Source of the DNA: Dehalococcoidales bacterium
GTDB taxonomy: Bacteria; Chloroflexota; Dehalococcoidia; Dehalococcoidales; RBG-16-60-22
Direction of reading: 5' to 3'
DNA: 64,000 bases
Assembly (NCBI GenBank): GCA_050014095.1
Contig: JBEKDZ010000001.1
Span: 43,989 to 107,988, forward strand
In this document: one piece after another, positions 11,958 to 55,236 of the stretch
How positions within the stretch are numbered: position 1 is the stretch's first letter
Layout: every line of letters starts with the position of its first letter
Made by a program: the position numbers and the translations under genes
The notes under the pieces: generated by a model
Databases searched by the model: none
Told to the model about the DNA's origin: nothing
What the model saw: only the letters and a program-made list of their open reading frames with translations

Positions 11958-12566
11958 ATGAAAAAAGTCTTAATCCACGTCTGCTGCGCGCACTGTGCCG
12001 CCTATACGGCGGAATATTGGCGGCGGGAGGGCTACGAAGCAACTGGCTTCTGGTACAACCCCAACATCCACCCCTTTACCGAGCACCAGCAGCGATTAGA
12101 AAGTATGCAGTCGCTGGCGAAAGAGATTAACCTACCGCTCATTGTCTCCCCCGATTATGACATCATCGAATACTTCCGCAGGGTAGCGGGACATGAGACG
12201 GAGCGCTGCCGAGATTGTTTTGAGCTGCGTCTGACCAAAACGGCAGAAATTGCTAGTGAGAAAGGCTTTGACGGTTTCACCACCACCCTTCTCATCAGCC
12301 CCCACCAGAAGCACGAATTAATCAAAGAAGTTGGCGAGAGGGTGGCGGGCGAAAAGGGGACGGAATTTCTTTACGCCGACCTGCGTAAACGCTATTCAGA
12401 CAGCCGCCACATCACCAAGCCGCTGAACCTCTACCGCCAGCAGTACTGCGGCTGCCTCTACAGCGAGTGGAACGCTACACCCAGGAGAAAACAGGAAAAT
12501 AAGAGAGCCCCGAAAACTCGAGGCTCTCTGGCTATTCTGCCTTTTTGTCTTTTCTTTTTTAGCTAG
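11958..12566 (+). CDS. queH: Epoxyqueuosine reductase QueH (DUF208); 3' end probably frameshifted
   Basis: HVCCAHC, YNPNIHP, RCRDCFELRL, FTTTLLISPHQ, YRQQYCGC motifs. Confidence 0.85.
   Translation: MKKVLIHVCCAHCAAYTAEYWRREGYEATGFWYNPNIHPFTEHQQRLESMQSLAKEINLPLIVSPDYDIIEYFRRVAGHETERCRDCFELRLTKTAEIASEKGFDGFTTTLLISPHQKHELIKEVGERVAGEKGTEFLYADLRKRYSDSRHITKPLNLYRQQYCGCLYSEWNATPRRKQENKRAPKTRGSLAILPFCLFFFS
12501..12529. terminator. Hairpin, probable bidirectional terminator
   Basis: AGAGAGCC-N13-GGCTCTCT between the convergent queH and SIMPL genes. Confidence 0.5.
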
Positions 12567-22606: not shown

Positions 22607-23230
22607 ATGAAAAAATTAATAAAAATCTTAACCTTAGTGATTATCACTGCCACTATTATTGCACTTTTCGTTGGTTGTGCTGGCACACCAGGAGCAACAG
22701 GGCCGCAAGGACCAGCGGGACTACCAGGAGCAATAGGGCCACAGGGAGCAGCAGGACTACCAGGAGCAGCGGGGTCACAGGGAGCAACGGGACCGCAAGG
22801 ACCGGCGGGACTACCAGGAGCAGCGGCGGCACAAGGCGCACCGGGGCCACAGGGACCAGCAGGAGCAACGGGGCCACAGGGACCAGGAGGGCCACAAGGA
22901 CCAGCAGGAGCAACTGGGCCACAAGGACCAGCGGGACTACCAGGAGCAGCGGGAACAAATTATGTTGTAGCCATGGGCACTGTTGATTCTACGGGAAATC
23001 CGCATAATATGTATAACGTCATGACGGTCATATGGAATACCACTTATCAACGGTGGGATATTGAACTGATAGGCATTAGTTATTTAGTATGGAACTATGT
23101 AACAGTCGTTACCCCATTTAGTGGATTTGCTACCCAAGGTAGTTTAGGTGGCAAGCTGACTATAACAATATATGACGCAGCTGGAAATAAAATTAAGGAG
23201 GGATGTTCTTTTGTAGTTTTCAGCCATTAG
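22607..23230 (+). CDS. Collagen-like lipoprotein
   Basis: Signal peptide ending FVGC, 31 triplets of Gly-X-Y register with one AAQ interruption, small C-terminal domain. Confidence 0.85.
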
Positions 23231-40140: not shown

Positions 40141-40352
40141 GAACGAATTGCCTCCTTATGCTATTTCCCGAAACCACACGTCAGCGGACATCAGAACGAA
40201 ATCACCGGAATAAAACGACCTGAGAATCCGCCAGACACACTCTTGATATTATAGCTAATTTCACCTTTCGATGTCAAAATCTACGAGCCAGCTGAACCAG
40301 CGCGTAATTGTAAAAACAATATTCATCGCTTATCATAGAGAATAGGTACGTG

Positions 40353-41141
40353 ATGAAACAGCAGCAGAACTCAACCGATACGATTACCTTCCTGGGGACG
40401 GCCGGCGCCCGGTTTATGGTCAGCAAACAGCTCGCCGCCTCGGGCGGAATCTGGTTGAACCTCGGCGGCACGCAGCTCCTCCTCGACCCCGCCCCGGGAA
40501 CAATCGTCCAGTCTAATAAAAGGAAACTGAACGCGGAAAAGCTGGACGCTATTATCCTCTCCCATCGGCACCTCGACCATTCCGGCGATGTCAATGTCAT
40601 GGTCGAAGCCATGACCAGCGGCGGCTTTAAGCGCCACGGTTACCTTTATGCCCCCGCCGATGCCCTGGGTGACGAGCCGGTCATTTATTCCTATCTCAGG
40701 AAATTCATCGAGGGCATTATCGTTCTGGAAGCAGGCAAGTCCTATACCATAGGTAACGTCACTTTCTCCACGCCGGTCAGGCACGTGCATCCGGGCGAGA
40801 CTTACGGCATGGTGTTTCAAACGCGGGGGCACAGCTTCTCCTATATTGCCGATACGCTCTATTTTGACGGTCTAGTTAAGAGCTACGCCAGCGAGCTGCT
40901 GATTATCAACATGGTCTTCACCGAGCCCCGCCCGCCCGTCGAGCACCTGGCAATACCGGATGCCGCGCGAATCATTGCAGAAATCAAGCCCAAAGTAGCC
41001 ATTTTAAGTCATTTTGGCATGCATGTCTGGCAGGCAAAGCCATGGAAAATAGCTGAAGAGATAACGCAGCAAACAGGAATAAAAGTAATCGCCGCACGGG
41101 ATGGCATGAAATTCGACCTGGCACAGCTGGATGAAATATAG
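40353..41141 (+). CDS. Metallo-beta-lactamase fold hydrolase
   Basis: FLGTAG, SHRHLDH, ADT, SHF, ARDG. Confidence 0.88.
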   Translation: MKQQQNSTDTITFLGTAGARFMVSKQLAASGGIWLNLGGTQLLLDPAPGTIVQSNKRKLNAEKLDAIILSHRHLDHSGDVNVMVEAMTSGGFKRHGYLYAPADALGDEPVIYSYLRKFIEGIIVLEAGKSYTIGNVTFSTPVRHVHPGETYGMVFQTRGHSFSYIADTLYFDGLVKSYASELLIINMVFTEPRPPVEHLAIPDAARIIAEIKPKVAILSHFGMHVWQAKPWKIAEEITQQTGIKVIAARDGMKFDLAQLDEI

Positions 41142-41148
41142 GAGTAGC

Positions 41149-41517
41149 ATGGAAACAGCAAGTTTTGAGCAGCTCGTCGCCAGAGCTATTGAAAGCCTGC
41201 CCGAGGAAATCCGCGAAAGTCTGGAAAATGTCGACGTCATCGTGGCAGACGATTTGACGCCTGATCAGCGACAAAGTGAGGGTTTGAAAAATAACGAAAC
41301 ACTGCTCGGACTTTACGAAGGGGTGCCTTTGACCAAACGGACACATGGCTACAGCGGCGTAGTGCCGGATAAAATTACCATTTTTCAAAAGCCCATTGAA
41401 GCCTCGTGTAAAAACGATATACAAATCGTAGCCGCCGTACAGCGGGTCGTCCGACACGAGATTGCCCATCACTTCGGCATCGATGATGACCGACTTAAAG
41501 AGATACGAAGATATTAA
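41149..41517 (+). CDS. Minimal zincin metallopeptidase family protein
   Basis: LLGLYEGVPL, PDKITIF, HEIAHHFG. Confidence 0.88.
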   Translation: METASFEQLVARAIESLPEEIRESLENVDVIVADDLTPDQRQSEGLKNNETLLGLYEGVPLTKRTHGYSGVVPDKITIFQKPIEASCKNDIQIVAAVQRVVRHEIAHHFGIDDDRLKEIRRY

Positions 41518-41518
41518 G

Positions 41519-42910
41519 CTATTTCAAAGTTTTCACCATGTAGTCGCCCTGTGACTCATAGCCGAACTCGACGCGGTAATATTCTTTAGCGCCCGTCCCG
41601 CTTAAGATAACCATCCGGCTGGCGTTAAACTCTTCTTTAGCGATACGCTCCGCCTCGCGTAATAATGCTTTACCATAGCCTTTGTGCTGCGCGGCGGTAT
41701 CGTTCTTCTCGCTAAGGGGCACTTCGGGTCCGAAAATATGCAGCTCTCTAACTATCGCTTTGTTTCCCTTTAGCCCCCGCTCCAATGCTGGAACAGGAAT
41801 AGACTGAATTCTAAGTCTTAGCAGACCGAACAGCGTTTCGTTCTCATCCTCGAAAGAGAGGAATATTTCCTTACCGCCGGCAGCAGTATAATCCATCCTG
41901 ACCAGGCGCGGCTCACCGATTTCCCTTCCGGCTAAAAGGCGGTGGCCAAACTCCCGGCAGCGCGTACAGTGACATTCGATGCCCTGTTGTTTCATCCGTT
42001 CTCTTACGATATCGCGTAGCGAGTCCTTAAGTCCAGCGACGATATACTTGGATGAGATATCGCGCAGCACGCGGGAGATTCGCACGTACTTCGGAACCAG
42101 CGCTTTTATCTGGATAATCAGGTTTACCATTGTCTCGTCGTTATAAGGCTGGTAACGCCCCTCTCGATACCACGTTGCCAGCTCGGTGCCTTCTACCACC
42201 ATGGTGGGATAGAGCTTAAGTCCGTCCGGCTTAAAACAGTCGTCGGTAAAAAGCCGTCGAGACATTTCCAAGTCTTTTTCCGGCGATGAGCCGGGTAATC
42301 CCGGCATCCAGTGATAGTAGACTTTGAAGCCGCTCTCACGGAGTCGTTTGGTGGCTTCCACTACCGCCTCGACCCCATGTCCCCGCCGTACCAGCTTGTA
42401 GATATCATCGTCCAAGGTCTGCACGCCAAGTTCTACCCGCGTTGCGCCGAACTCCAGCATACGCTTGATTTCCGCAGGCCCGCACCAGTCCGGCCGCGTC
42501 TCGATGCAAAGTCCGGTGCAGCGGTTGCGGGCAGTCTCATTAATTTTCTTCGCATCCTCCAACGACGCCGCTTCCACGCCGTTAAGAGCGTCGTAAAGGT
42601 CTTTGACAAATTGATACTGGTACTCTAAAGGCTGCGCCAAAAAAGTGCCGCCCATGATGATAAGCTCGATTTTATCTGTAGGATGTCCCATATCCTCGAA
42701 CATCCTGATTCTAACTTTCACCTGTTGGCCGGCGTCGAAGTCGCTGCTCCTGGCGCGCAGCACCGCCGGCGACTCCGGCGTGTAGCTCTGGGGCGCATCA
42801 ATATAGGTGGGACAATAGACGCACTTGCCGGGACAGCTCATCGGTTTGGTCATCACCGCCAGCGGTGTTACCCCGGAGATAGTTCTTGCAAATTTCCTTA
42901 TCTTAGCCAT
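41519..42910 (-). CDS. elp3: Elp3-family tRNA U34 carboxymethyltransferase (radical SAM + KAT)
   Basis: CPGKCVYC, PQSYT, MGGTF, IETRPD, RVELGVQ, LKLYP, RISRVLRDI, CHCTRCRE, VRELHIFG, QHKGYG. Confidence 0.92.
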   Translation of the reverse strand: MAKIRKFARTISGVTPLAVMTKPMSCPGKCVYCPTYIDAPQSYTPESPAVLRARSSDFDAGQQVKVRIRMFEDMGHPTDKIELIIMGGTFLAQPLEYQYQFVKDLYDALNGVEAASLEDAKKINETARNRCTGLCIETRPDWCGPAEIKRMLEFGATRVELGVQTLDDDIYKLVRRGHGVEAVVEATKRLRESGFKVYYHWMPGLPGSSPEKDLEMSRRLFTDDCFKPDGLKLYPTMVVEGTELATWYREGRYQPYNDETMVNLIIQIKALVPKYVRISRVLRDISSKYIVAGLKDSLRDIVRERMKQQGIECHCTRCREFGHRLLAGREIGEPRLVRMDYTAAGGKEIFLSFEDENETLFGLLRLRIQSIPVPALERGLKGNKAIVRELHIFGPEVPLSEKNDTAAQHKGYGKALLREAERIAKEEFNASRMVILSGTGAKEYYRVEFGYESQGDYMVKTLK

Positions 42911-43028
42911 ACTATTATAAGAAGTCCGACCCTGTCATTGTGAGCGGAGCGAATCAATCCGCCTGCCCTCTTTAATCGGGACAATAGTTTAAATAGGCAG
43001 TCACTCTAAGTTTAGCAGATAGGTGCTT

Positions 43029-43679
43029 ATGTCAACAACGCGAGAAACCTACAACCGTATAGCGGCATCCCGATATAATTTCCGGCAACACTCCAGATTC
43101 CAGGTGGAACTGGGAGAACTGGCGCGGCGGTGGCAAAAGGGCAAGCTTCTTAATGTCGGCTGCGCTCACGGGCCGGACTTTATTCCCTTTAAAGAATCCT
43201 TCGAGCTATACGGAGTAGATTATTCTCCGCAAATGCTGGATTTAGCTAAGAAATACGCCGCTAAAAATCAGTTCAGCGTTAATCTAGTAGAAGCTGATGC
43301 ACGTAATCTCCCTTATGCTAACGACTTTTACGACTTCGCTATTGCCATCGCCGTCTACCACCATATCGAAGATAAAGACGGAAGAATGAAAGCGCTTAAG
43401 GAGCTTTACCGCGTGCTAAAGCCCGGCGGGGAGGCTTTCATTACCGTCTGGAACCGGTGGCAGCCCAGGCACTGGCTCCAGAAAAAAAGCTTTATGGAAC
43501 CCTGGAAAACCAGAGAGAAAACGCTCTACCGCTACTATTACCTGTTCACCTACCGCGAGCTGGAGAAGCTGGCGCGCCGGGCAGGCTTCGAGGTTATAAA
43601 GTCCTATCCTGAAGACCGCTATAAATTTCCTTTTAAGATATTTTCGCGGAATATCTGCCTGCTGGTGAAGAAAATTTAA
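43029..43679 (+). CDS. Class I SAM-dependent methyltransferase, Trm9/ALKBH8-like
   Basis: LNVGCAHG, GVDYS, DFAIAIAVYHH, LYRVLKPGG..FITVW, PW, YRYYYLF...EL. Confidence is high for a methyltransferase, lower for the subfamily. Confidence 0.75.
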   Translation: MSTTRETYNRIAASRYNFRQHSRFQVELGELARRWQKGKLLNVGCAHGPDFIPFKESFELYGVDYSPQMLDLAKKYAAKNQFSVNLVEADARNLPYANDFYDFAIAIAVYHHIEDKDGRMKALKELYRVLKPGGEAFITVWNRWQPRHWLQKKSFMEPWKTREKTLYRYYYLFTYRELEKLARRAGFEVIKSYPEDRYKFPFKIFSRNICLLVKKI

Positions 43680-46100
43680 TTACCTGTCTTCCTCCACCCA
43701 CAACCTCTCCCCATCGGTAATAAAGGTAATCGTGCCGTTTTCGTCCGTGCGGTAAACATTATCCTCCCCCAACTTTGCCTCCAGCCTCTCCACTACCACA
43801 TTATTTGGTAATTCATACGTATTATTGGCGCCGACGGATATCACCGCCGCCCGCGGATTTACAACCGCCAGGAATTGCTCTATGGTGGAGGTGTTCGAGC
43901 CGTGATGGGCAACTTTGATGACCGTCCCTTTGATATCCGCCCGTAAACGGATTAACTCCCACTCCGCCTCGCTCGTGGTGTCCCCGGTGAGTAAAAAACT
44001 GACTTTGCCGTCCTTAAGCAGCAGCACTACACTGTTGTTATCCACATCCGACTCACTGCCTTTGATGGGATTAGCCGAAGGCCATAACACTTCGATGGTA
44101 ACGCCGCCACCCAAATCTGTGCGCTGTCCGGCGTTGGCGATAGTGCTTTTAATCCCTGCCTCCCTGATAAACCTTATCCATTCATTATATAGAGAGGATT
44201 CACCTTCGGAAAGGAGATAAAGCACCTGCCCCACATCGTAGCGGCGCAGCGCCTCCAGCAGCCCGGCGAGGTGGTCCTGGTGGGGATGGGTCAATACCAC
44301 CAAGTCGATGCTCCTATCCCAGAAAGGCATCCGCTCGCCTAACTCCAGGGTAAGATTCTGGGGACTGGGCCCGCCGTCAATAAGCACCCGCTGACTTCCT
44401 TTTTGAATGAGAATAGCATCCCCCTGCCCCACATCCAGGAAGCTGACGCGCAGCTTGGCATCGGGCATAGTGGCAGCGGTATAAACCACCAACATGGCTA
44501 TCACCAGCAGCGGCGCGATAGCCCACTTAAGTTTGCCGGCTAGTCCAAAGCCGATACTAAAGCCCGCCTTCATCACGCCGGATGCGCCGGAAAACAGACT
44601 ACGTACACCACCCCACCGACCGTGTAGCCAGATGAGCAATACGAGGATGGCATAATAGACCGCGATAATAACAGGACTTAGCGAGTCGATTTTAATGGCC
44701 GAGATTGCTGGCGACCCCATGCCGCTGACCACTGCTATCATGAACGATAAAAAGGGCCAGACTAGCCAGCCGAAAACTTGAGCCACCGCTACCGAAGCCA
44801 GCCCGAGTAACATCGTTAGCGTCCCTAAAATAATTATCACAGGTAACACTGGCATTAGTAAGAACGTGGCAATCGGTCCCACCAGCGAAAAAATGCCGAA
44901 GTAATAAGCAATTAAAGGCCACACAGCGATAATGGACGCCAGTGAAGCGCTCAAGCTATCGCTAACTAAATTAAGTGTCGAGACAAGGAATCCCTCATCG
45001 CCCCATCTGGCAGTAATTACCCGCCTGCCGAAATCCCTTAAAATTGGATAAATGAAAATCAGTCCCGCCATAGCGAGAAAGCTCAACTGGAAAGAGGCAT
45101 CGCCCAGGATATACGGGCTTATGCCCACCATCACCGCCGCAGTGAAAATTAACGCTGTAAAACTGTTACGCTGCCTACCCAGAGCTTCGGCGAAAAGAAA
45201 AATGCTAGCCATAATCGCGCCCCGCACCACCGGTGGGTTCATGCCGGTGATAACGGTATAAAACCAGATTACTCCAAGAGCCAGCCAAACATAGAGATAA
45301 CGCCTTCTGCCGAAGAGCCATAACCCGATAGCCAGCAGAATACCAGCCATGATGCCGATATTTTGACCGGATATCGCTAGCAGGTGAGCCGTGCCACTGC
45401 GGGTGAAATCGTCATTCAAGTCGGCGGGGATATTGCCGCGTAGTCCCAGCAGAATCCCCTGCGCCAAAGATGCCTGCGGTTCCGGCAGCACTTCGGCCAG
45501 TTTTTGCGCCAAGTTCGCCCTTAAATCATAGATCCATGCCAGCGGTGGAAAGCCGTGGCCCGTTTCCAGCACCGCTATTTTAGGATAATATATTGTGGCG
45601 TAAATACCCTGGTGCGCCAGATATCCTTTATAATCAAAATCTCCGAGCATAGGCGGCGTTTGCAACTCTCCGGTGATATCGACTAAATCACCGTATTTGT
45701 ATTCGGGATACCGTGGGACGGTTATTAAAACCTTTCCCTCAACACCCTGCCAGCCGTTTTCCAAGCGTATTTCTTCTACCGCTAGGGTCAATTGCGTGCT
45801 TTTATCCCTGATATCCGGAGCTGCTGAAATCACTCCCTTTATCTCCACCGCACCTATATCGTTATAGAAACTGATACGGCTCTTATCTACTGTATAAAGG
45901 CTGGTATAAGCATAAACAGTAGCGCCGACGAAAAGAAAAATACCCAGACTGATGAGGATAATGGCTTTCCTATAGCGGCGCGTTAAGAAAAGGCAAAACA
46001 GGGGCACCAGACCAATAAGGCAAAACAGCGGCGGCAGCTTTAAAATAGTGCCAAGGTATATCCCCACCAACCAGATAGAGCTAAGACATATCAGTATCAT
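43680..46100 (-). CDS. comEC: DNA uptake channel ComEC/Rec2
   Basis: HLLAISG, SFQLSF, FLDVGQGDA, THPHQDH, KVAHHGS. Confidence 0.95.
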   Translation of the reverse strand: MILICLSSIWLVGIYLGTILKLPPLFCLIGLVPLFCLFLTRRYRKAIILISLGIFLFVGATVYAYTSLYTVDKSRISFYNDIGAVEIKGVISAAPDIRDKSTQLTLAVEEIRLENGWQGVEGKVLITVPRYPEYKYGDLVDITGELQTPPMLGDFDYKGYLAHQGIYATIYYPKIAVLETGHGFPPLAWIYDLRANLAQKLAEVLPEPQASLAQGILLGLRGNIPADLNDDFTRSGTAHLLAISGQNIGIMAGILLAIGLWLFGRRRYLYVWLALGVIWFYTVITGMNPPVVRGAIMASIFLFAEALGRQRNSFTALIFTAAVMVGISPYILGDASFQLSFLAMAGLIFIYPILRDFGRRVITARWGDEGFLVSTLNLVSDSLSASLASIIAVWPLIAYYFGIFSLVGPIATFLLMPVLPVIIILGTLTMLLGLASVAVAQVFGWLVWPFLSFMIAVVSGMGSPAISAIKIDSLSPVIIAVYYAILVLLIWLHGRWGGVRSLFSGASGVMKAGFSIGFGLAGKLKWAIAPLLVIAMLVVYTAATMPDAKLRVSFLDVGQGDAILIQKGSQRVLIDGGPSPQNLTLELGERMPFWDRSIDLVVLTHPHQDHLAGLLEALRRYDVGQVLYLLSEGESSLYNEWIRFIREAGIKSTIANAGQRTDLGGGVTIEVLWPSANPIKGSESDVDNNSVVLLLKDGKVSFLLTGDTTSEAEWELIRLRADIKGTVIKVAHHGSNTSTIEQFLAVVNPRAAVISVGANNTYELPNNVVVERLEAKLGEDNVYRTDENGTITFITDGERLWVEEDR

Positions 46101-53960: not shown

Positions 53961-54713
53961 TTAATCTTTTTTATCGGTATGCATCATGCGCTTTACCAGG
54001 CGCTTGTCTTCAAGTCCAAGGTCGGCTTTATCTAACAACTCGGGACGCTTTTCCAGCGTCCGTTTGATTATCTGCTCCCGCCGCCACTTGGCAATCTGCG
54101 CATGATTGCCGGAAAGCAAAATCTCCGGCACCTGCCAGCCGCGGAAATCCGCCGGACGCGTATACTGCGGATATTCTAACAGACCGCTGGCGTGAGAATC
54201 ATCCAGGGGTGACTCCTCTGAACCCAGCACTCCCGGCACCAACCGTAGCACGGCATCCGCCACCACCATCGCCGGCAGTTCACCGCCGGTTAAAACATAG
54301 TCGCCGATGCTGATGGTATCGGTAGCCAGGTATTCGATAACGCGTTCATCGACGCCCTCATAGTGGCCGCAAATTAAAATAATATGCGGGTGCTGCGCCA
54401 GCTCCTGCGCTATTTTGTGCGAAAACAATCTGCCCTGTGGCGTTAGCAAAATAATCGGCAGCATGGCACCTTTATCATCCAGTTTGTCTTTAATAGCTTC
54501 AACCGCTTCGAAGATAGGCTCCGGCTTCATGACCATACCGGCGCCGCCGCCATAGGGATAGTCATCCGCCGTATGGTGTTTATCATGGGTATAGTCGCGA
54601 ATATTCACCGTATTGATGCTGACCAGTCCGGTATCGATAGCCCGTTTGAAAATGCCAAAACTGAACGGGACTTCGAACATCTGTGGAAACAATGTTAAAA
54701 TATCGATGCGCAT
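53961..54713 (-). CDS. trmD: tRNA (guanine37-N1)-methyltransferase
   Basis: [32 protein letters not shown]. Confidence 0.97.
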
Positions 54714-54714
54714 T

Positions 54715-55236
54715 TTATTTATGAACTCTGGCATTCTGCAGAGAATGCTCCGTCACTTCTCCCTTAATGATTTCCACGGCATGCGATAGGGCTGGCAATA
54801 TCGCCTCGAGACATTCCCGCACGGCTTTAGTGCTCCCGGGCATATTGATAATGAGGCACTGCCCCCGCTGCCCCGCCACCGCCCGACTCAACATCGCCAT
54901 CGGCGTTTTTTCTAATGATTTCGCCCGCATCGCTTCGGCGATACCAAGCACTTCCCGCTCTATCACCGCTAATGTCGCTTCTGGCGTAACATCCCTTTTG
55001 CTTAAGCCAGTGCCGCCCGTGGTCAAGATAACGTCCACTTTACCGCTATCTGCCCAATCGCATAGCGTGGCGGCGATAACGTCTTTCTCGTCCGGCACAA
55101 TCTCGTATTTAATGACATTACTATCGATAGTAGCCACGATATCCCTGATGGCCTCGCCGCTTTTATCCTGGCGCTGCCCCTGCGAGCCTTTATCGCTGAT
55201 GGTGAGTATGCCGATGTTAATCATAGACTTTTTCAC
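54715..55236 (-). CDS. MogA/MoaB molybdopterin adenylyltransferase family protein
   Basis: LTISD, TTGGTG..RDVTPEA, SRAVAG, NMPGS. Confidence 0.9.

What the first reader, a model, noticed from the sequence alone, without database searches (positions are those of the whole stretch)
41519..43679. Elp3 head-to-head with a Trm9/ALKBH8-like methyltransferase: possible bacterial mcm5U pathway
Seen: elp3 and a class I methyltransferase are divergent across about 115 bp. The methyltransferase has Y..IA near the N-terminus, DFAIAIAVYHH followed by R..AL.EL.RVLKPGG..FITVW...Q, then PW and YRYYYLF...EL. Established: Elp3 forms cm5U34, a Dehalococcoides Elp3 has been characterised, and eukaryotic Trm9/ALKBH8 methylates cm5U to mcm5U. 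As I recall them (not aligned here), Trm9/ALKBH8 signatures are ISIAV(I/V)HH, IY.WA.EQ, VPW and R(Y/F)YH. Bacteria normally modify U34 through MnmEG. Inference: this pair encodes a two-step eukaryote/archaea-like wobble-uridine pathway in a bacterium. No Trm112 activator is visible in the window.
Basis: partly seen in the sequence, partly recalled or inferred. Interest (0 to 1): 0.8.

Follow-up and report, generated by a model that had tools for sequence, protein, structure and literature searches.

The report
Bacterial Elp3 plus Trm9-like methyltransferase pair
A Dehalococcoidia bacterium carries, back to back, the enzyme that puts a carboxymethyl group on the wobble uridine of tRNA (Elp3) and a close relative of the enzyme that methylates that group (Trm9), so it probably builds the archaeal/eukaryotic wobble base mcm5U instead of the usual bacterial one, apparently without the helper protein that all studied Trm9 enzymes need.

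Summary
elp3 (41519-42910, minus strand) and a 216/218-aa class I methyltransferase (43023/43029-43679, plus strand) are divergent across 112-118 bp, and every motif quoted is present.

The methyltransferase belongs to the Trm9 family:
- Its best solved relative by sequence is Yarrowia Trm9 (5cm2_Z).
- It keeps all 8 residues whose mutation inactivates or strongly impairs yeast Trm9.
- It is separate from the genome's real UbiE/MenG.

In a sample of 151 Dehalococcoidia genomes:
- All 23 genomes with the methyltransferase have Elp3, and the genes are adjacent and divergent in 21.
- None of the 24 Elp3 genomes has MnmG, against 52 of the other 127.
- MnmA is nearly universal.

No Trm112 gene was found in this 94%-complete genome, nor in 8 other Elp3 genomes, three of them closed.

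My reading is a stand-alone Elp3 plus a Trm112-independent Trm9 homologue, with bacterial MnmA, making mcm5(s2)U34 in place of the MnmEG route. Activity is untested. Family libraries and fold searches do not single out Trm9.

I found no paper describing a bacterial Trm9; one review states that none was detected. IMG's automatic annotation already names many homologues TRM9. This scan has reported the same pair before on other genomes.

The parts
41519..42910 (-). elp3: a stand-alone radical-SAM/GNAT tRNA uridine-34 carboxymethyl-forming enzyme, 463 aa. Like D. mccartyi Elp3 it lacks the N-terminal basic extension: the match begins at position 57 of the 522-position TIGR01211 model.
   Evidence: One search gives the ORF, with CxxxCxxC at C26/C30/C33. 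One search finds PF04055, PF16199 and PF00583. One search gives TIGR01211 at 587.1 bits against a cut-off of 350, matching model positions 57-522. One search gives 5l7j_A at E 1.5e-198.
42911..43028 (.). Shared divergent intergenic region of 112-118 bp, depending on the methyltransferase start. It presumably holds both promoters; this is inferred.
   Evidence: Coordinates are. The consensus promoter scan found 4 sites against 3.4 +/- 1.9 expected in shuffles, so it is no evidence. The head-to-head layout is conserved in 21 of 23 class genomes.
43023..43679 (+). Trm9-family class I SAM methyltransferase. It is 218 aa from GTG 43023 and 216 aa from ATG 43029. Predicted reaction: cm5U34 to mcm5U34 (methyl ester).
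   Evidence: best solved sequence is 5cm2_Z (Yarrowia Trm9), E 1e-12, over residues 43-199; 235.9 bits on a profile built only from non-Dehalococcoidia relatives. R21, D66, H113/H114, W143, W161, R170, Y172 and N210 correspond to yeast R29, D72, H115/H116, W145, W168, R241, Y243 and N271. AlphaFold model with pLDDT 92.4; 5cm2_Z at Z 21.6, rmsd 1.8 A over 171 residues.

Best explanation
The two divergent genes form a two-step tRNA wobble-uridine module of the archaeal/eukaryotic type.

- Elp3 acts alone, as shown for the D. mccartyi and archaeal enzymes. It uses radical-SAM chemistry and acetyl-CoA to make 5-carboxymethyluridine (cm5U) at position 34 of U34 tRNAs.
- The neighbouring Trm9-family methyltransferase then uses SAM to esterify the carboxyl group, giving mcm5U34.
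- On tRNA-Glu(UUC), Lys(UUU) and Gln(UUG), the genome's bacterial-type thiolase MnmA would add s2, giving mcm5s2U.
- The module takes the place of the usual bacterial MnmE/MnmG route, which this genome and all sampled Elp3-bearing relatives lack.
- Unlike the yeast, human and Haloferax Trm9 enzymes, this one probably works without a Trm112 partner.

Shown here: gene identities, residue conservation, linkage, and presence or absence of the pathways. Inferred: the reaction, the substrate tRNAs, the s2 combination and independence from Trm112.
For: Identity of Elp3: TIGR01211 at 587 bits against a cut-off of 350; 5l7j_A at E 1.5e-198.

Identity of the methyltransferase:
- Yarrowia Trm9 (5cm2_Z) is the top hit among 177,635 distinct solved sequences in three searches: the protein alone (51.5 bits), the family profile A1 (79.2 bits), and profile A2 of 56 non-Dehalococcoidia relatives (115 bits, full length).
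- Only the Trm9 match extends through the C-terminal half.
- Letoquart et al. 2015 (PMC4678810, passages and Table 2) found that alanine changes at yeast R29, D72, H116, W145, W168, R241, Y243 and N271 abolish or cut activity at least ten-fold. All 8 are kept in the window protein, mapped through. All 8 are invariant or at least 90% conserved in the 45-sequence family alignment.
- 33 of the 120 listed homologues carry IMG's name 'tRNA (uracil-5-)-methyltransferase TRM9' (my count).

Not UbiE or CmoM:
- A true UbiE/MenG (214.3 bits against a cut-off of 158.35) lies elsewhere, beside a MenA-like gene. The window protein is 7th of the genome's 11 matches to that model, at 47.1 bits.
- CmoA and CmoB are not found above cut-off.
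- In the tree the window protein sits in a 99* Dehalococcoidia clade, inside a family across which Elp3-adjacent members are scattered. The genome's own UbiE and three other methyltransferases are split off by a 95* branch.

Linkage:
- In 151 class genomes, 23 have the methyltransferase and 24 have Elp3, with 23 shared. The genes are adjacent and divergent in 21 of 23.
- 75 of 80 species-level genome loci hold Elp3 upstream on the opposite strand. Four of the 5 misses have less than 600 bp of upstream sequence.
- In 5 of 5 other-class Chloroflexota Elp3 genomes examined, a more divergent Trm9-like gene lies 0.3-1.1 kb from Elp3, divergently.

Pathway logic:
- No MnmG here, and only sub-threshold GTPase-domain hits for MnmE.
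- MnmG is found in 0 of the 24 Elp3 genomes against 52 of the other 127.
- MnmA is present here at 377.5 bits against a cut-off of 236.95, and in 21 of the 24 Elp3 genomes.
- The genome has 15 tRNA genes with U34.

Precedent: Haloferax Trm9-Trm112 makes mcm5U and needs cm5U (PMC6144793, passages).
Against: - No activity, RNA or mass-spectrometry data exist for this organism. A review notes that direct evidence for xcm5U in Dehalococcoides is lacking, and that D. mccartyi Elp3 was only weakly active in vitro (PMC7663514, passages).
- Curated libraries give only generic class I methyltransferase hits. Pfam's UbiE/COQ5 family formally passes its cut-off (44.8 against 20.1 bits). 10 of the 120 listed homologues are named UbiE by IMG.
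- The sequence margin of Trm9 over the next solved protein (PH0226, 1ve3_A, function unknown) is small: 51.5 against 49.2, 79.2 against 73.6, and 115 against 102.1 bits.
- Fold searches do not single out Trm9. Foldseek ranks it 3rd. In VIA-align it is one of dozens tied at Z 20-22.7.
- No labelled eukaryotic or haloarchaeal Trm9 sequence was available for my trees. Orthology therefore rests on the PDB searches and the residue pattern.
- All characterised Trm9 enzymes need Trm112 for solubility and activity (PMC4678810, PMC6144793), and none is encoded here.
- Outside Dehalococcoidia the linkage is partial: Elp3 lay in the held flanks of 7 of 46 metagenome loci whose methyltransferase scores at least 150 bits on A2.
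- Related genomes are not independent samples.
Confidence: 0.72

Rival explanations
1. The methyltransferase does work with Elp3 on tRNA but does not make the mcm5 methyl ester. It might methylate another atom of an Elp3-derived side chain or a neighbouring anticodon-loop nucleotide, with the end product being cm5U, ncm5U or an undescribed derivative.
For: Linkage proves only a shared process. In Haloferax, cm5U was not detected and is thought to be converted quickly to other products when Trm9 is missing (PMC6144793). The other-class Chloroflexota relatives have A, V or T where yeast has Y243. In the 128 full-length representatives examined, the second His is Cys in 36, so chemistry may vary within the family.
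Against: The window protein keeps all 8 residues tied to cm5U binding and catalysis in yeast Trm9, including the proposed carboxylate-positioning pair R29/H116.
Confidence: 0.13
2. It is an ordinary UbiE-like or other small-molecule methyltransferase that merely sits beside elp3.
For: Pfam PF01209 scores 44.8 bits against a cut-off of 20.1. IMG names 10 of the 120 listed homologues UbiE. Fold searches return many small-molecule methyltransferases at equal Z.
Against: NCBIfam's UbiE/MenG model gives 48.6 bits against a cut-off of 158.35. A real UbiE/MenG sits beside a MenA-like gene elsewhere in the genome. The protein co-occurs strictly with Elp3 (23 of 23), and the head-to-head layout is kept even where the methyltransferase sequence has drifted to about 90 bits. 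The tree separates it from the genome's own UbiE.
Confidence: 0.04
3. It is a CmoM-like enzyme that methylates cmo5U to mcmo5U, the other known carboxyl-methylating U34 enzyme of bacteria.
For: The chemistry is the same: a methyl ester on a U34 side-chain carboxylate. Profile A2 also hits the solved 'tRNA 5-carboxymethoxyuridine methyltransferase' 8joz_A at 51.7 bits.
Against: That hit covers only the SAM-binding half (profile positions 6-145) and is far below Trm9's 115 bits. CmoB (best 26.2 bits against 275) and CmoA (best 42.9 against 193.3, which falls on the UbiE gene) are not found, so no cmo5U supply is evident.
Confidence: 0.03
4. It methylates a protein, for example Elp3 itself or a translation factor, or another RNA, and the link to Elp3 is regulatory.
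For: Trm112-partner methyltransferases include protein and rRNA enzymes (PMC5372719). No substrate has been shown for this protein.
Against: The conserved residues are those of the Trm9 nucleotide pocket. Nothing points to a protein substrate.
Confidence: 0.05

Closest known systems
Trm9-Trm112 (S. cerevisiae and Y. lipolytica, PDB 5cm2) and the ALKBH8 methyltransferase domain with TRMT112: tRNA (carboxymethyluridine34-5-O)-methyltransferase
   Same: Both have the class I SAM fold. Trm9 is the best solved sequence match, with rmsd 1.8 A over 171 residues and 28% identity. All 8 residues whose mutation inactivates or strongly impairs yeast Trm9 are conserved. Both act downstream of an Elp3 enzyme.
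   Different: No Trm112 gene is found in this genome, whereas Trm112 is obligatory for the eukaryotic enzymes. The protein is bacterial and only 216-218 aa, without the insertions of the yeast and human proteins. Its gene is fixed head to head with elp3. Its activity has not been measured.
Haloferax volcanii Trm9 (HVO_1032) with Trm112, and the Elp3/Trm9 gene cluster noted in Sulfolobus solfataricus
   Same: Both are prokaryotic, with a stand-alone Elp3 plus Trm9. mcm5U was demonstrated in Haloferax, and gene clustering was reported for Sulfolobus (PMC6144793 and PMC5372719, passages).
   Different: The Haloferax enzyme needs Trm112 in vivo. Thiolation there would use archaeal-type enzymes, whereas here a bacterial MnmA is present. 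I could not fetch these archaeal sequences to compare them directly.
Dehalococcoides mccartyi Elp3 (DmcElp3; PDB 5l7j, 6ia6)
   Same: The window's Elp3 matches it at E 1.5e-198 and shares the short N-terminus. Three closed 1.4-1.5 Mb genomes of the same order carry the same gene pair (G055, G079, G133).
   Different: The papers I could read treat DmcElp3 as an isolated bacterial oddity and do not mention the neighbouring Trm9-like gene. The primary 2016 paper was not available to me.
Bacterial MnmE/MnmG (with MnmC) and MnmA pathway to (c)mnm5(s2)U34
   Same: It modifies the same tRNA position and has the same decoding role. MnmA is shared.
   Different: The C5 chemistry and enzymes are different. 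MnmG is not found in any of the 24 Elp3-bearing class genomes.

Membership tests
Trm9 / ALKBH8-type tRNA (cm5U34) O-methyltransferase | Class I SAM-dependent methyltransferase fold with a SAM-binding acidic residue (yeast D72) | tested here: met
   Pfam Methyltransf_11/25/23. AlphaFold model with pLDDT 92.4. D66 aligns with Yarrowia D83, which is yeast D72.
Trm9 / ALKBH8-type tRNA (cm5U34) O-methyltransferase | Trm9-specific active-site residues shown by mutagenesis: yeast R29, H116, W145, W168, R241, Y243, N271 (plus H115) | tested here: met
   R21, H114, W143, W161, R170, Y172, N210 and H113 correspond to them. The mapping goes through the HMMER alignments to 5cm2_Z and through the window protein against profile A2. 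The residue list comes from PMC4678810 Table 2. All are invariant or at least 90% conserved in the 45-sequence family alignment.
Trm9 / ALKBH8-type tRNA (cm5U34) O-methyltransferase | Closer to characterised Trm9 than to any other characterised methyltransferase | tested here: met
   5cm2_Z is first of the solved sequences in three searches, and the only hit covering the C-terminal half. The margins are small (2-13 bits). Fold searches are tied. No labelled Trm9 could be placed in a tree.
Trm9 / ALKBH8-type tRNA (cm5U34) O-methyltransferase | Obligate Trm112 partner, as in all characterised members (yeast, human, Haloferax) | tested here: not met
   This is a genomic proxy only. PF03966 has 0 matches at E <= 0.01 in the 94%-complete genome. 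There is also no match in 8 other Elp3 genomes of the class sample, including the closed G055, G079 and G098. A very divergent partner cannot be excluded.
Trm9 / ALKBH8-type tRNA (cm5U34) O-methyltransferase | A source of cm5U34 (Elp3 or Elongator) in the same organism | tested here: met
   elp3 is adjacent. All 23 class genomes with the methyltransferase have Elp3.
Trm9 / ALKBH8-type tRNA (cm5U34) O-methyltransferase | Catalyses cm5U to mcm5U on tRNA | not testable with these tools
   This needs an enzyme assay or LC-MS/MS of tRNA.
Elp3 (TIGR01211) | Radical-SAM domain with a CxxxCxxC cluster motif, plus a C-terminal GNAT/KAT domain, scoring above the family cut-off | tested here: met
   C26/C30/C33. 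PF04055, PF16199 and PF00583. TIGR01211 at 587.1 against 350 bits. 5l7j_A at E 1.5e-198.
UbiE/MenG quinone C-methyltransferase | Scores above the curated family cut-off and sits in a quinone-biosynthesis context | tested here: not met
   TIGR01934 scores 48.6 against 158.35 bits. The genome's true UbiE/MenG (214.3 bits) lies at G000:C2:46010-46696, beside a MenA-like gene. Pfam PF01209 does pass its looser cut-off.
CmoM (tRNA cmo5U34 methyltransferase) | CmoA and CmoB present to supply cmo5U | tested here: not met
   CmoB best 26.2 against 275 bits. CmoA best 42.9 against 193.3 bits.

The most novel reading that the evidence does not exclude
Dehalococcoidia, and on the evidence of five genomes other Chloroflexota too, decode with archaeal/eukaryotic-type mcm5(s2)U34. 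They make it with a hybrid pathway: stand-alone Elp3, a Trm9 that is active without Trm112, and the bacterial thiolase MnmA. This pathway has replaced MnmEG. It would be the first mcm5U pathway and the first Trm112-independent Trm9 known in bacteria. The methyltransferases of Trm112-less genomes mostly carry Arg or Gln at a position of the beta3-beta4 loop where those of Trm112-bearing genomes carry small or hydrophobic residues. That difference may mark how the partner was dispensed with.
Probability: 0.45. Interest if true: 0.75.

Novelty: new variant of a known kind. Interest (0 to 1): 0.62.

Why it matters
Reviews present the (c)mnm5U route through MnmEG as the bacterial way to modify wobble uridines, and mcm5U as an archaeal/eukaryotic mark. 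One review states that no bacterial genes resembling the Trm112-partner methyltransferases could be detected (PMC5372719). Another says Elp3 occurs in one bacterial clade and that evidence for xcm5U there is lacking (PMC7663514).

This gene pair gives three things:
- A concrete prediction of what D. mccartyi Elp3, an enzyme studied structurally for a decade, feeds into.
- A small Trm9 that may work alone. Trm9 has so far been obtainable only with Trm112, so this could make its enzymology and structure with tRNA much easier.
- A natural case of one wobble-modification system replacing another within a bacterial class.

It can be tested directly with published assays.

Tried and rejected
- **Fold searches.** Foldseek against the PDB and VIA-align's second look cannot tell Trm9 from dozens of class I methyltransferases. 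I did not use them to decide.
- **Self-association.** Complex prediction with two copies of the methyltransferase, to ask whether self-association replaces Trm112, returned 'no answer' with score 0.00. This is no evidence either way.
- **Expression.** The look-up of sequencing runs listed no RNA holder, so I did not lay reads. Nothing can be said on expression.
- **Promoters.** The promoter and terminator scan of 41000-44200 was at chance level.
- **Naming relatives.** The listing of cluster members named only 2 of 10 distant relatives: one 'Candidatus Pacearchaeota archaeon' and one IMG 'UbiE'. The relatives' taxonomy therefore rests on the ESM Atlas's cluster labels: Nanobdellota, Thermoplasmatota, Methanobacteriota, Nealsoniibacteriota and Minisyncoccota. 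These are leads only.
- **Genome scan.** The genome-contig scan with A1 returned only Dehalococcoidia-type loci, plus one 3.6-kb contig labelled Calditrichales. It gave no archaeal anchors.
- **Phylum search.** A1 at E <= 1e-25 found the methyltransferase only in Dehalococcoidia, in 21 of the 48 Elp3 genomes. I first read this as Elp3 without Trm9 in the other classes. One search showed that the threshold had missed divergent copies lying beside Elp3.
- **Trm112 surface.** Comparison with the Trm112-contact residues of Yarrowia Trm9 was inconclusive, apart from one loop position, and that is confounded by phylogeny.
- **Unavailable paper.** Glatt et al. 2016 (PMC5018218) is not held. It may mention the neighbouring gene.
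- **Supplements.** I did not open the supplements of the Trm9 papers (sequence alignments, interface tables).
Full report
**What is there**

One search shows two divergent ORFs. One is 463 aa at 41519-42910 on the minus strand. The other is 218 aa at 43023-43679 on the plus strand, with a GTG start. The database copy of that protein (216 aa) starts at the ATG at 43029. The gap is 112-118 bp.

The minus-strand gene is Elp3:
- TIGR01211 scores 587.1 bits against a cut-off of 350. The match starts at model position 57, so the N-terminal basic extension is missing, as in the Dehalococcoides enzyme.
- Pfam finds radical-SAM, Radical_SAM_C and GNAT domains.
- A CxxxCxxC motif lies at C26/C30/C33.
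- The best solved relative is D. mccartyi Elp3, 5l7j_A, E 1.5e-198.

The surrounding window is ordinary core chromosome: rpoB/rpoC, EF-Tu, ribosomal proteins, NusG, TrmD, QueH, FtsA/FtsZ, PriA, and ComEC/ComEA directly downstream. G+C is even. Nothing suggests a mobile island. Homologue names place the organism in Dehalococcoidia/Dehalococcoidales.

**Is the methyltransferase a Trm9?**

The curated libraries are uninformative. Pfam gives generic class I families plus the loose UbiE/COQ5 family (44.8 bits against a cut-off of 20.1). Every NCBIfam model is far below its cut-off; UbiE/MenG scores 48.6 against 158.35.

Against all solved sequences, the top hit is Yarrowia lipolytica Trm9 (5cm2_Z):
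- 51.5 bits, E 1e-12, residues 43-199, for the protein alone.
- 79.2 bits for profile A1, built from 45 Dehalococcoidia homologues.
- 115 bits over the full length for profile A2, built from 56 relatives outside Dehalococcoidia.

The runner-up each time is PH0226 (1ve3_A, function unknown), at 49.2, 73.6 and 102.1 bits. It aligns only over the SAM-binding half. The margin is small, but only Trm9 matches the C-terminal half.

Letoquart et al. 2015 (PMC4678810; I read passages and Table 2) showed that alanine changes at yeast R29, D72, H116, W145, W168, R241, Y243 and N271 abolish or strongly reduce activity. They modelled these residues around the cm5U carboxylate and the uracil ring.

I mapped these residues in two steps: the printed alignment of A2 to 5cm2_Z, and the alignment of the window protein to A2 (235.9 bits). 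The window protein has R21, D66, H114 (and H113), W143, W161, R170, Y172 and N210 at those positions, which is 8 of 8. All are invariant or at least 90% conserved in A1.

An exhaustive profile search found 174 cluster representatives at E <= 1e-30. I examined 128 full-length ones; 22 of the best 150 were dropped for being under 185 or over 300 aa. They share the pattern:

| Position | Most common residue | Count of 128 |
|---|---|---|
| R21 | R | 105 (K in 19) |
| D66 | D | 128 |
| H113 | H | 118 |
| H114 | H | 66 (C in 36) |
| W143 | W | 124 |
| W161 | W | 119 |
| R170 | R | 127 |
| Y172 | Y | 108 |
| N210 | N | 116 |

The AlphaFold model is confident (pLDDT 92.4), but fold comparison does not discriminate. 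Foldseek ranks 5cm2_Z third. In VIA-align it is one of many chains at Z 20-22.7, although it has the lowest rmsd (1.8 A over 171 residues) and the highest identity (28%) among them.

IMG's automatic annotation of the 120 listed homologues TRM9, and 10 UbiE (my count).

**Rivals**

The genome has a genuine UbiE/MenG at G000:C2:46010-46696, scoring 214.3 bits against a cut-off of 158.35. It lies beside a MenA-like gene. The window protein is only the 7th of the genome's 11 matches to that model.

CmoA and CmoB, which would supply the substrate of the one known bacterial U34 carboxyl methyltransferase (CmoM), are not found above cut-off.

I built a maximum-likelihood tree of 58 rows (quick search, SH-aLRT support only):
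- The window protein sits in a 99* clade of 13 Dehalococcoidia sequences.
- That clade lies inside a family across which Elp3-adjacent members from metagenomes and other Chloroflexota are scattered.
- The genome's own UbiE and three other methyltransferases lie across a 95* branch.
- A fifth, long-branched methyltransferase of the genome is unresolved at the base.

I had no labelled eukaryotic or haloarchaeal Trm9 sequence to add. This is the main gap in the orthology argument.

**Linkage**

In an even sample of 151 genomes of the class, 23 have the methyltransferase at E <= 1e-20 and 24 have Elp3. All 23 are among the 24. The extra genome, G130, is 84% complete in about 400 contigs.

The two genes are adjacent and divergent in 21 of the 23. 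G054 has them on different contigs. G112 has both at contig ends.

A scan of one genome per species returned 478 relatives, of which the best 80 were kept. Of those 80, 79 are titled Dehalococcoid- or Chloroflex-type. In 75, Elp3 lies upstream on the opposite strand, about 30 bp to 3 kb away. Four of the five misses have less than 600 bp of upstream sequence. One (L067) has 2.9 kb upstream without Elp3.

Across the phylum, 48 of 251 sampled genomes have Elp3, 27 of them outside Dehalococcoidia. Profile A1 at 1e-25 found the methyltransferase only in the 21 Dehalococcoidia genomes.

I then searched five of the 27 with the broader profile A2, choosing the most contiguous assemblies. Each had an 87-95-bit, roughly 250-aa Trm9-like gene 0.3-1.1 kb from Elp3 on the opposite strand. 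It was the genome's best A2 match in four and the second best in one. These genes keep the R, D, HH, W, W, R and N positions, and have an insertion between the two tryptophans.

Outside the phylum the linkage is only partial. Of 46 metagenome loci whose methyltransferase scores at least 150 bits on A2, 7 hold Elp3 within the flanks available. One of those 7 is a Dehalococcoidia-type locus.

**Pathway context**

The genome has no MnmG match. For MnmE it has only sub-threshold hits to GTPase domains.

In the class sample, MnmG is in 52 of 151 genomes and in none of the 24 with Elp3. The two routes are mutually exclusive in this sample. Related genomes are not independent, so I attach no statistic. 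75 genomes have neither.

MnmA, the bacterial s2U34 thiolase, is present here at 377.5 bits against a cut-off of 236.95. It is in 137 of 151 class genomes, including 21 of the 24 with Elp3. So mcm5s2U on Glu, Lys and Gln tRNAs is the expected end product.

ARAGORN finds 48 tRNA genes, 15 of them with U34.

**Trm112**

Characterised Trm9 enzymes need Trm112 for solubility and activity (PMC4678810; PMC6144793).

PF03966 has no match at E <= 0.01 in this 94%-complete genome. In the class it is common, in 120 of 151 genomes, but it is not tied to the pair. Of the 24 Elp3 genomes:
- 13 have a strong hit.
- 2 have only weak hits, inside large frames.
- 9 have none. These include three closed genomes (G055, G079, G098).

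Of the 127 genomes without Elp3, 105 have a match. I therefore infer that this enzyme works without Trm112. A very divergent partner cannot be excluded.

In the segment aligned to Yarrowia residues 98-117, one loop position separates the two groups. It is Arg or Gln in 8 of the 9 Trm112-less genomes compared. It is small or hydrophobic in all 11 Trm112-bearing ones. This is suggestive but confounded by phylogeny.

A test for self-association gave no answer.

**Literature**

I searched these term combinations: Elp3 + Trm9 + Dehalococcoides; bacterial Elp3 + mcm5U; Elp3 + Trm9 + Chloroflexi (0 papers); Elp3 + MnmG + Dehalococcoid; mcm5U + Dehalococcoid; and Elp3/Trm9 with names of bacterial phyla.

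In the passages I read, no paper describes a bacterial Trm9 or the gene next to Dehalococcoides elp3.
- Bourgeois et al. 2017 state that no bacterial genes similar to the Trm112-partner methyltransferases could be detected.
- Abbassi et al. 2020 state that Elp3 occurs in one bacterial clade and that direct evidence for xcm5U there is lacking.

The primary DmcElp3 paper was not available, and I did not open any supplements.

This scan's own notes already report the same pair in other Chloroflexota, Patescibacteria, Coriobacteriia and giant viruses. Those notes are unchecked AI notes and I do not count them as evidence.

**Verdict**

I file the methyltransferase as a Trm9-family homologue that fails one feature of all characterised members, the Trm112 partner. 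That makes it a new variant of a known kind rather than a plain member.

Confidence that it makes mcm5U34 from Elp3's cm5U is 0.72. Interest is 0.62.

Noticed in passing
G000:C4:320894-320967 (outside the window): ARAGORN calls a tRNA-Ile gene with anticodon UAU, alongside three CAU tRNAs. As I recall, a UAU isoleucine tRNA is unusual in bacteria. It would need a U34 modification that avoids reading AUG, so it is a possible special client of the Elp3 pathway.
   Followed up: no
class-level genome sample: 75 of 151 sampled Dehalococcoidia genomes have neither Elp3 nor MnmG, although MnmA is nearly universal (137 of 151). How these genomes modify C5 of U34, if they do at all, is open.
   Followed up: no
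L218-L222 (G277, G236, G374, G220, G190): Chloroflexota of other classes carry a longer Elp3 (open frames of about 550-670 aa) head to head with a divergent, roughly 250-aa Trm9-like gene. That gene has an insertion between the two conserved tryptophans, and A, V or T in place of the yeast Y243 equivalent. Elp3 is in 27 of the sampled genomes outside Dehalococcoidia, so it is more widespread than the 'one specific clade' of the reviews.
   Followed up: partly
window 43275-43334 (methyltransferase residues 85-104) and loci L007-L027: At the position aligned to Yarrowia Trm9 residue 107, in the beta3-beta4 loop next to the Trm112 interface, 8 of the 9 Trm112-less genomes compared have Arg or Gln. 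All 11 Trm112-bearing genomes compared have small or hydrophobic residues. This is confounded by shared ancestry.
   Followed up: partly
homologues P0012, P0016, P0017, P0051, P0054, P0069, P0086, P0114; loci L038, L075, L090, L096, L104: 8 of the 120 listed homologues are 343-360 aa and carry an added DUF454/YbaN membrane domain (PF04304). In several species 0.9-3 kb separates elp3 from the methyltransferase. I did not check whether the fusions are real or are gene-calling joins.
   Followed up: no
window 40350-41517: An MBL-fold hydrolase gene (40350-41141) has only sub-threshold similarity to RNase Z (57.9 bits against a cut-off of 252). It overlaps by 11 bp a Zincin_1 (PF06262) gene (41131-41517), which ends one base before the stop codon of the convergent elp3. 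I did not test for any link to tRNA processing.
   Followed up: no
window 11958-12563, 53964-54734 and 22607-23227: Two other tRNA-modification genes lie in the window: QueH (epoxyqueuosine reductase) and TrmD. There is also a 207-aa protein with collagen triple-helix repeats.
   Followed up: no
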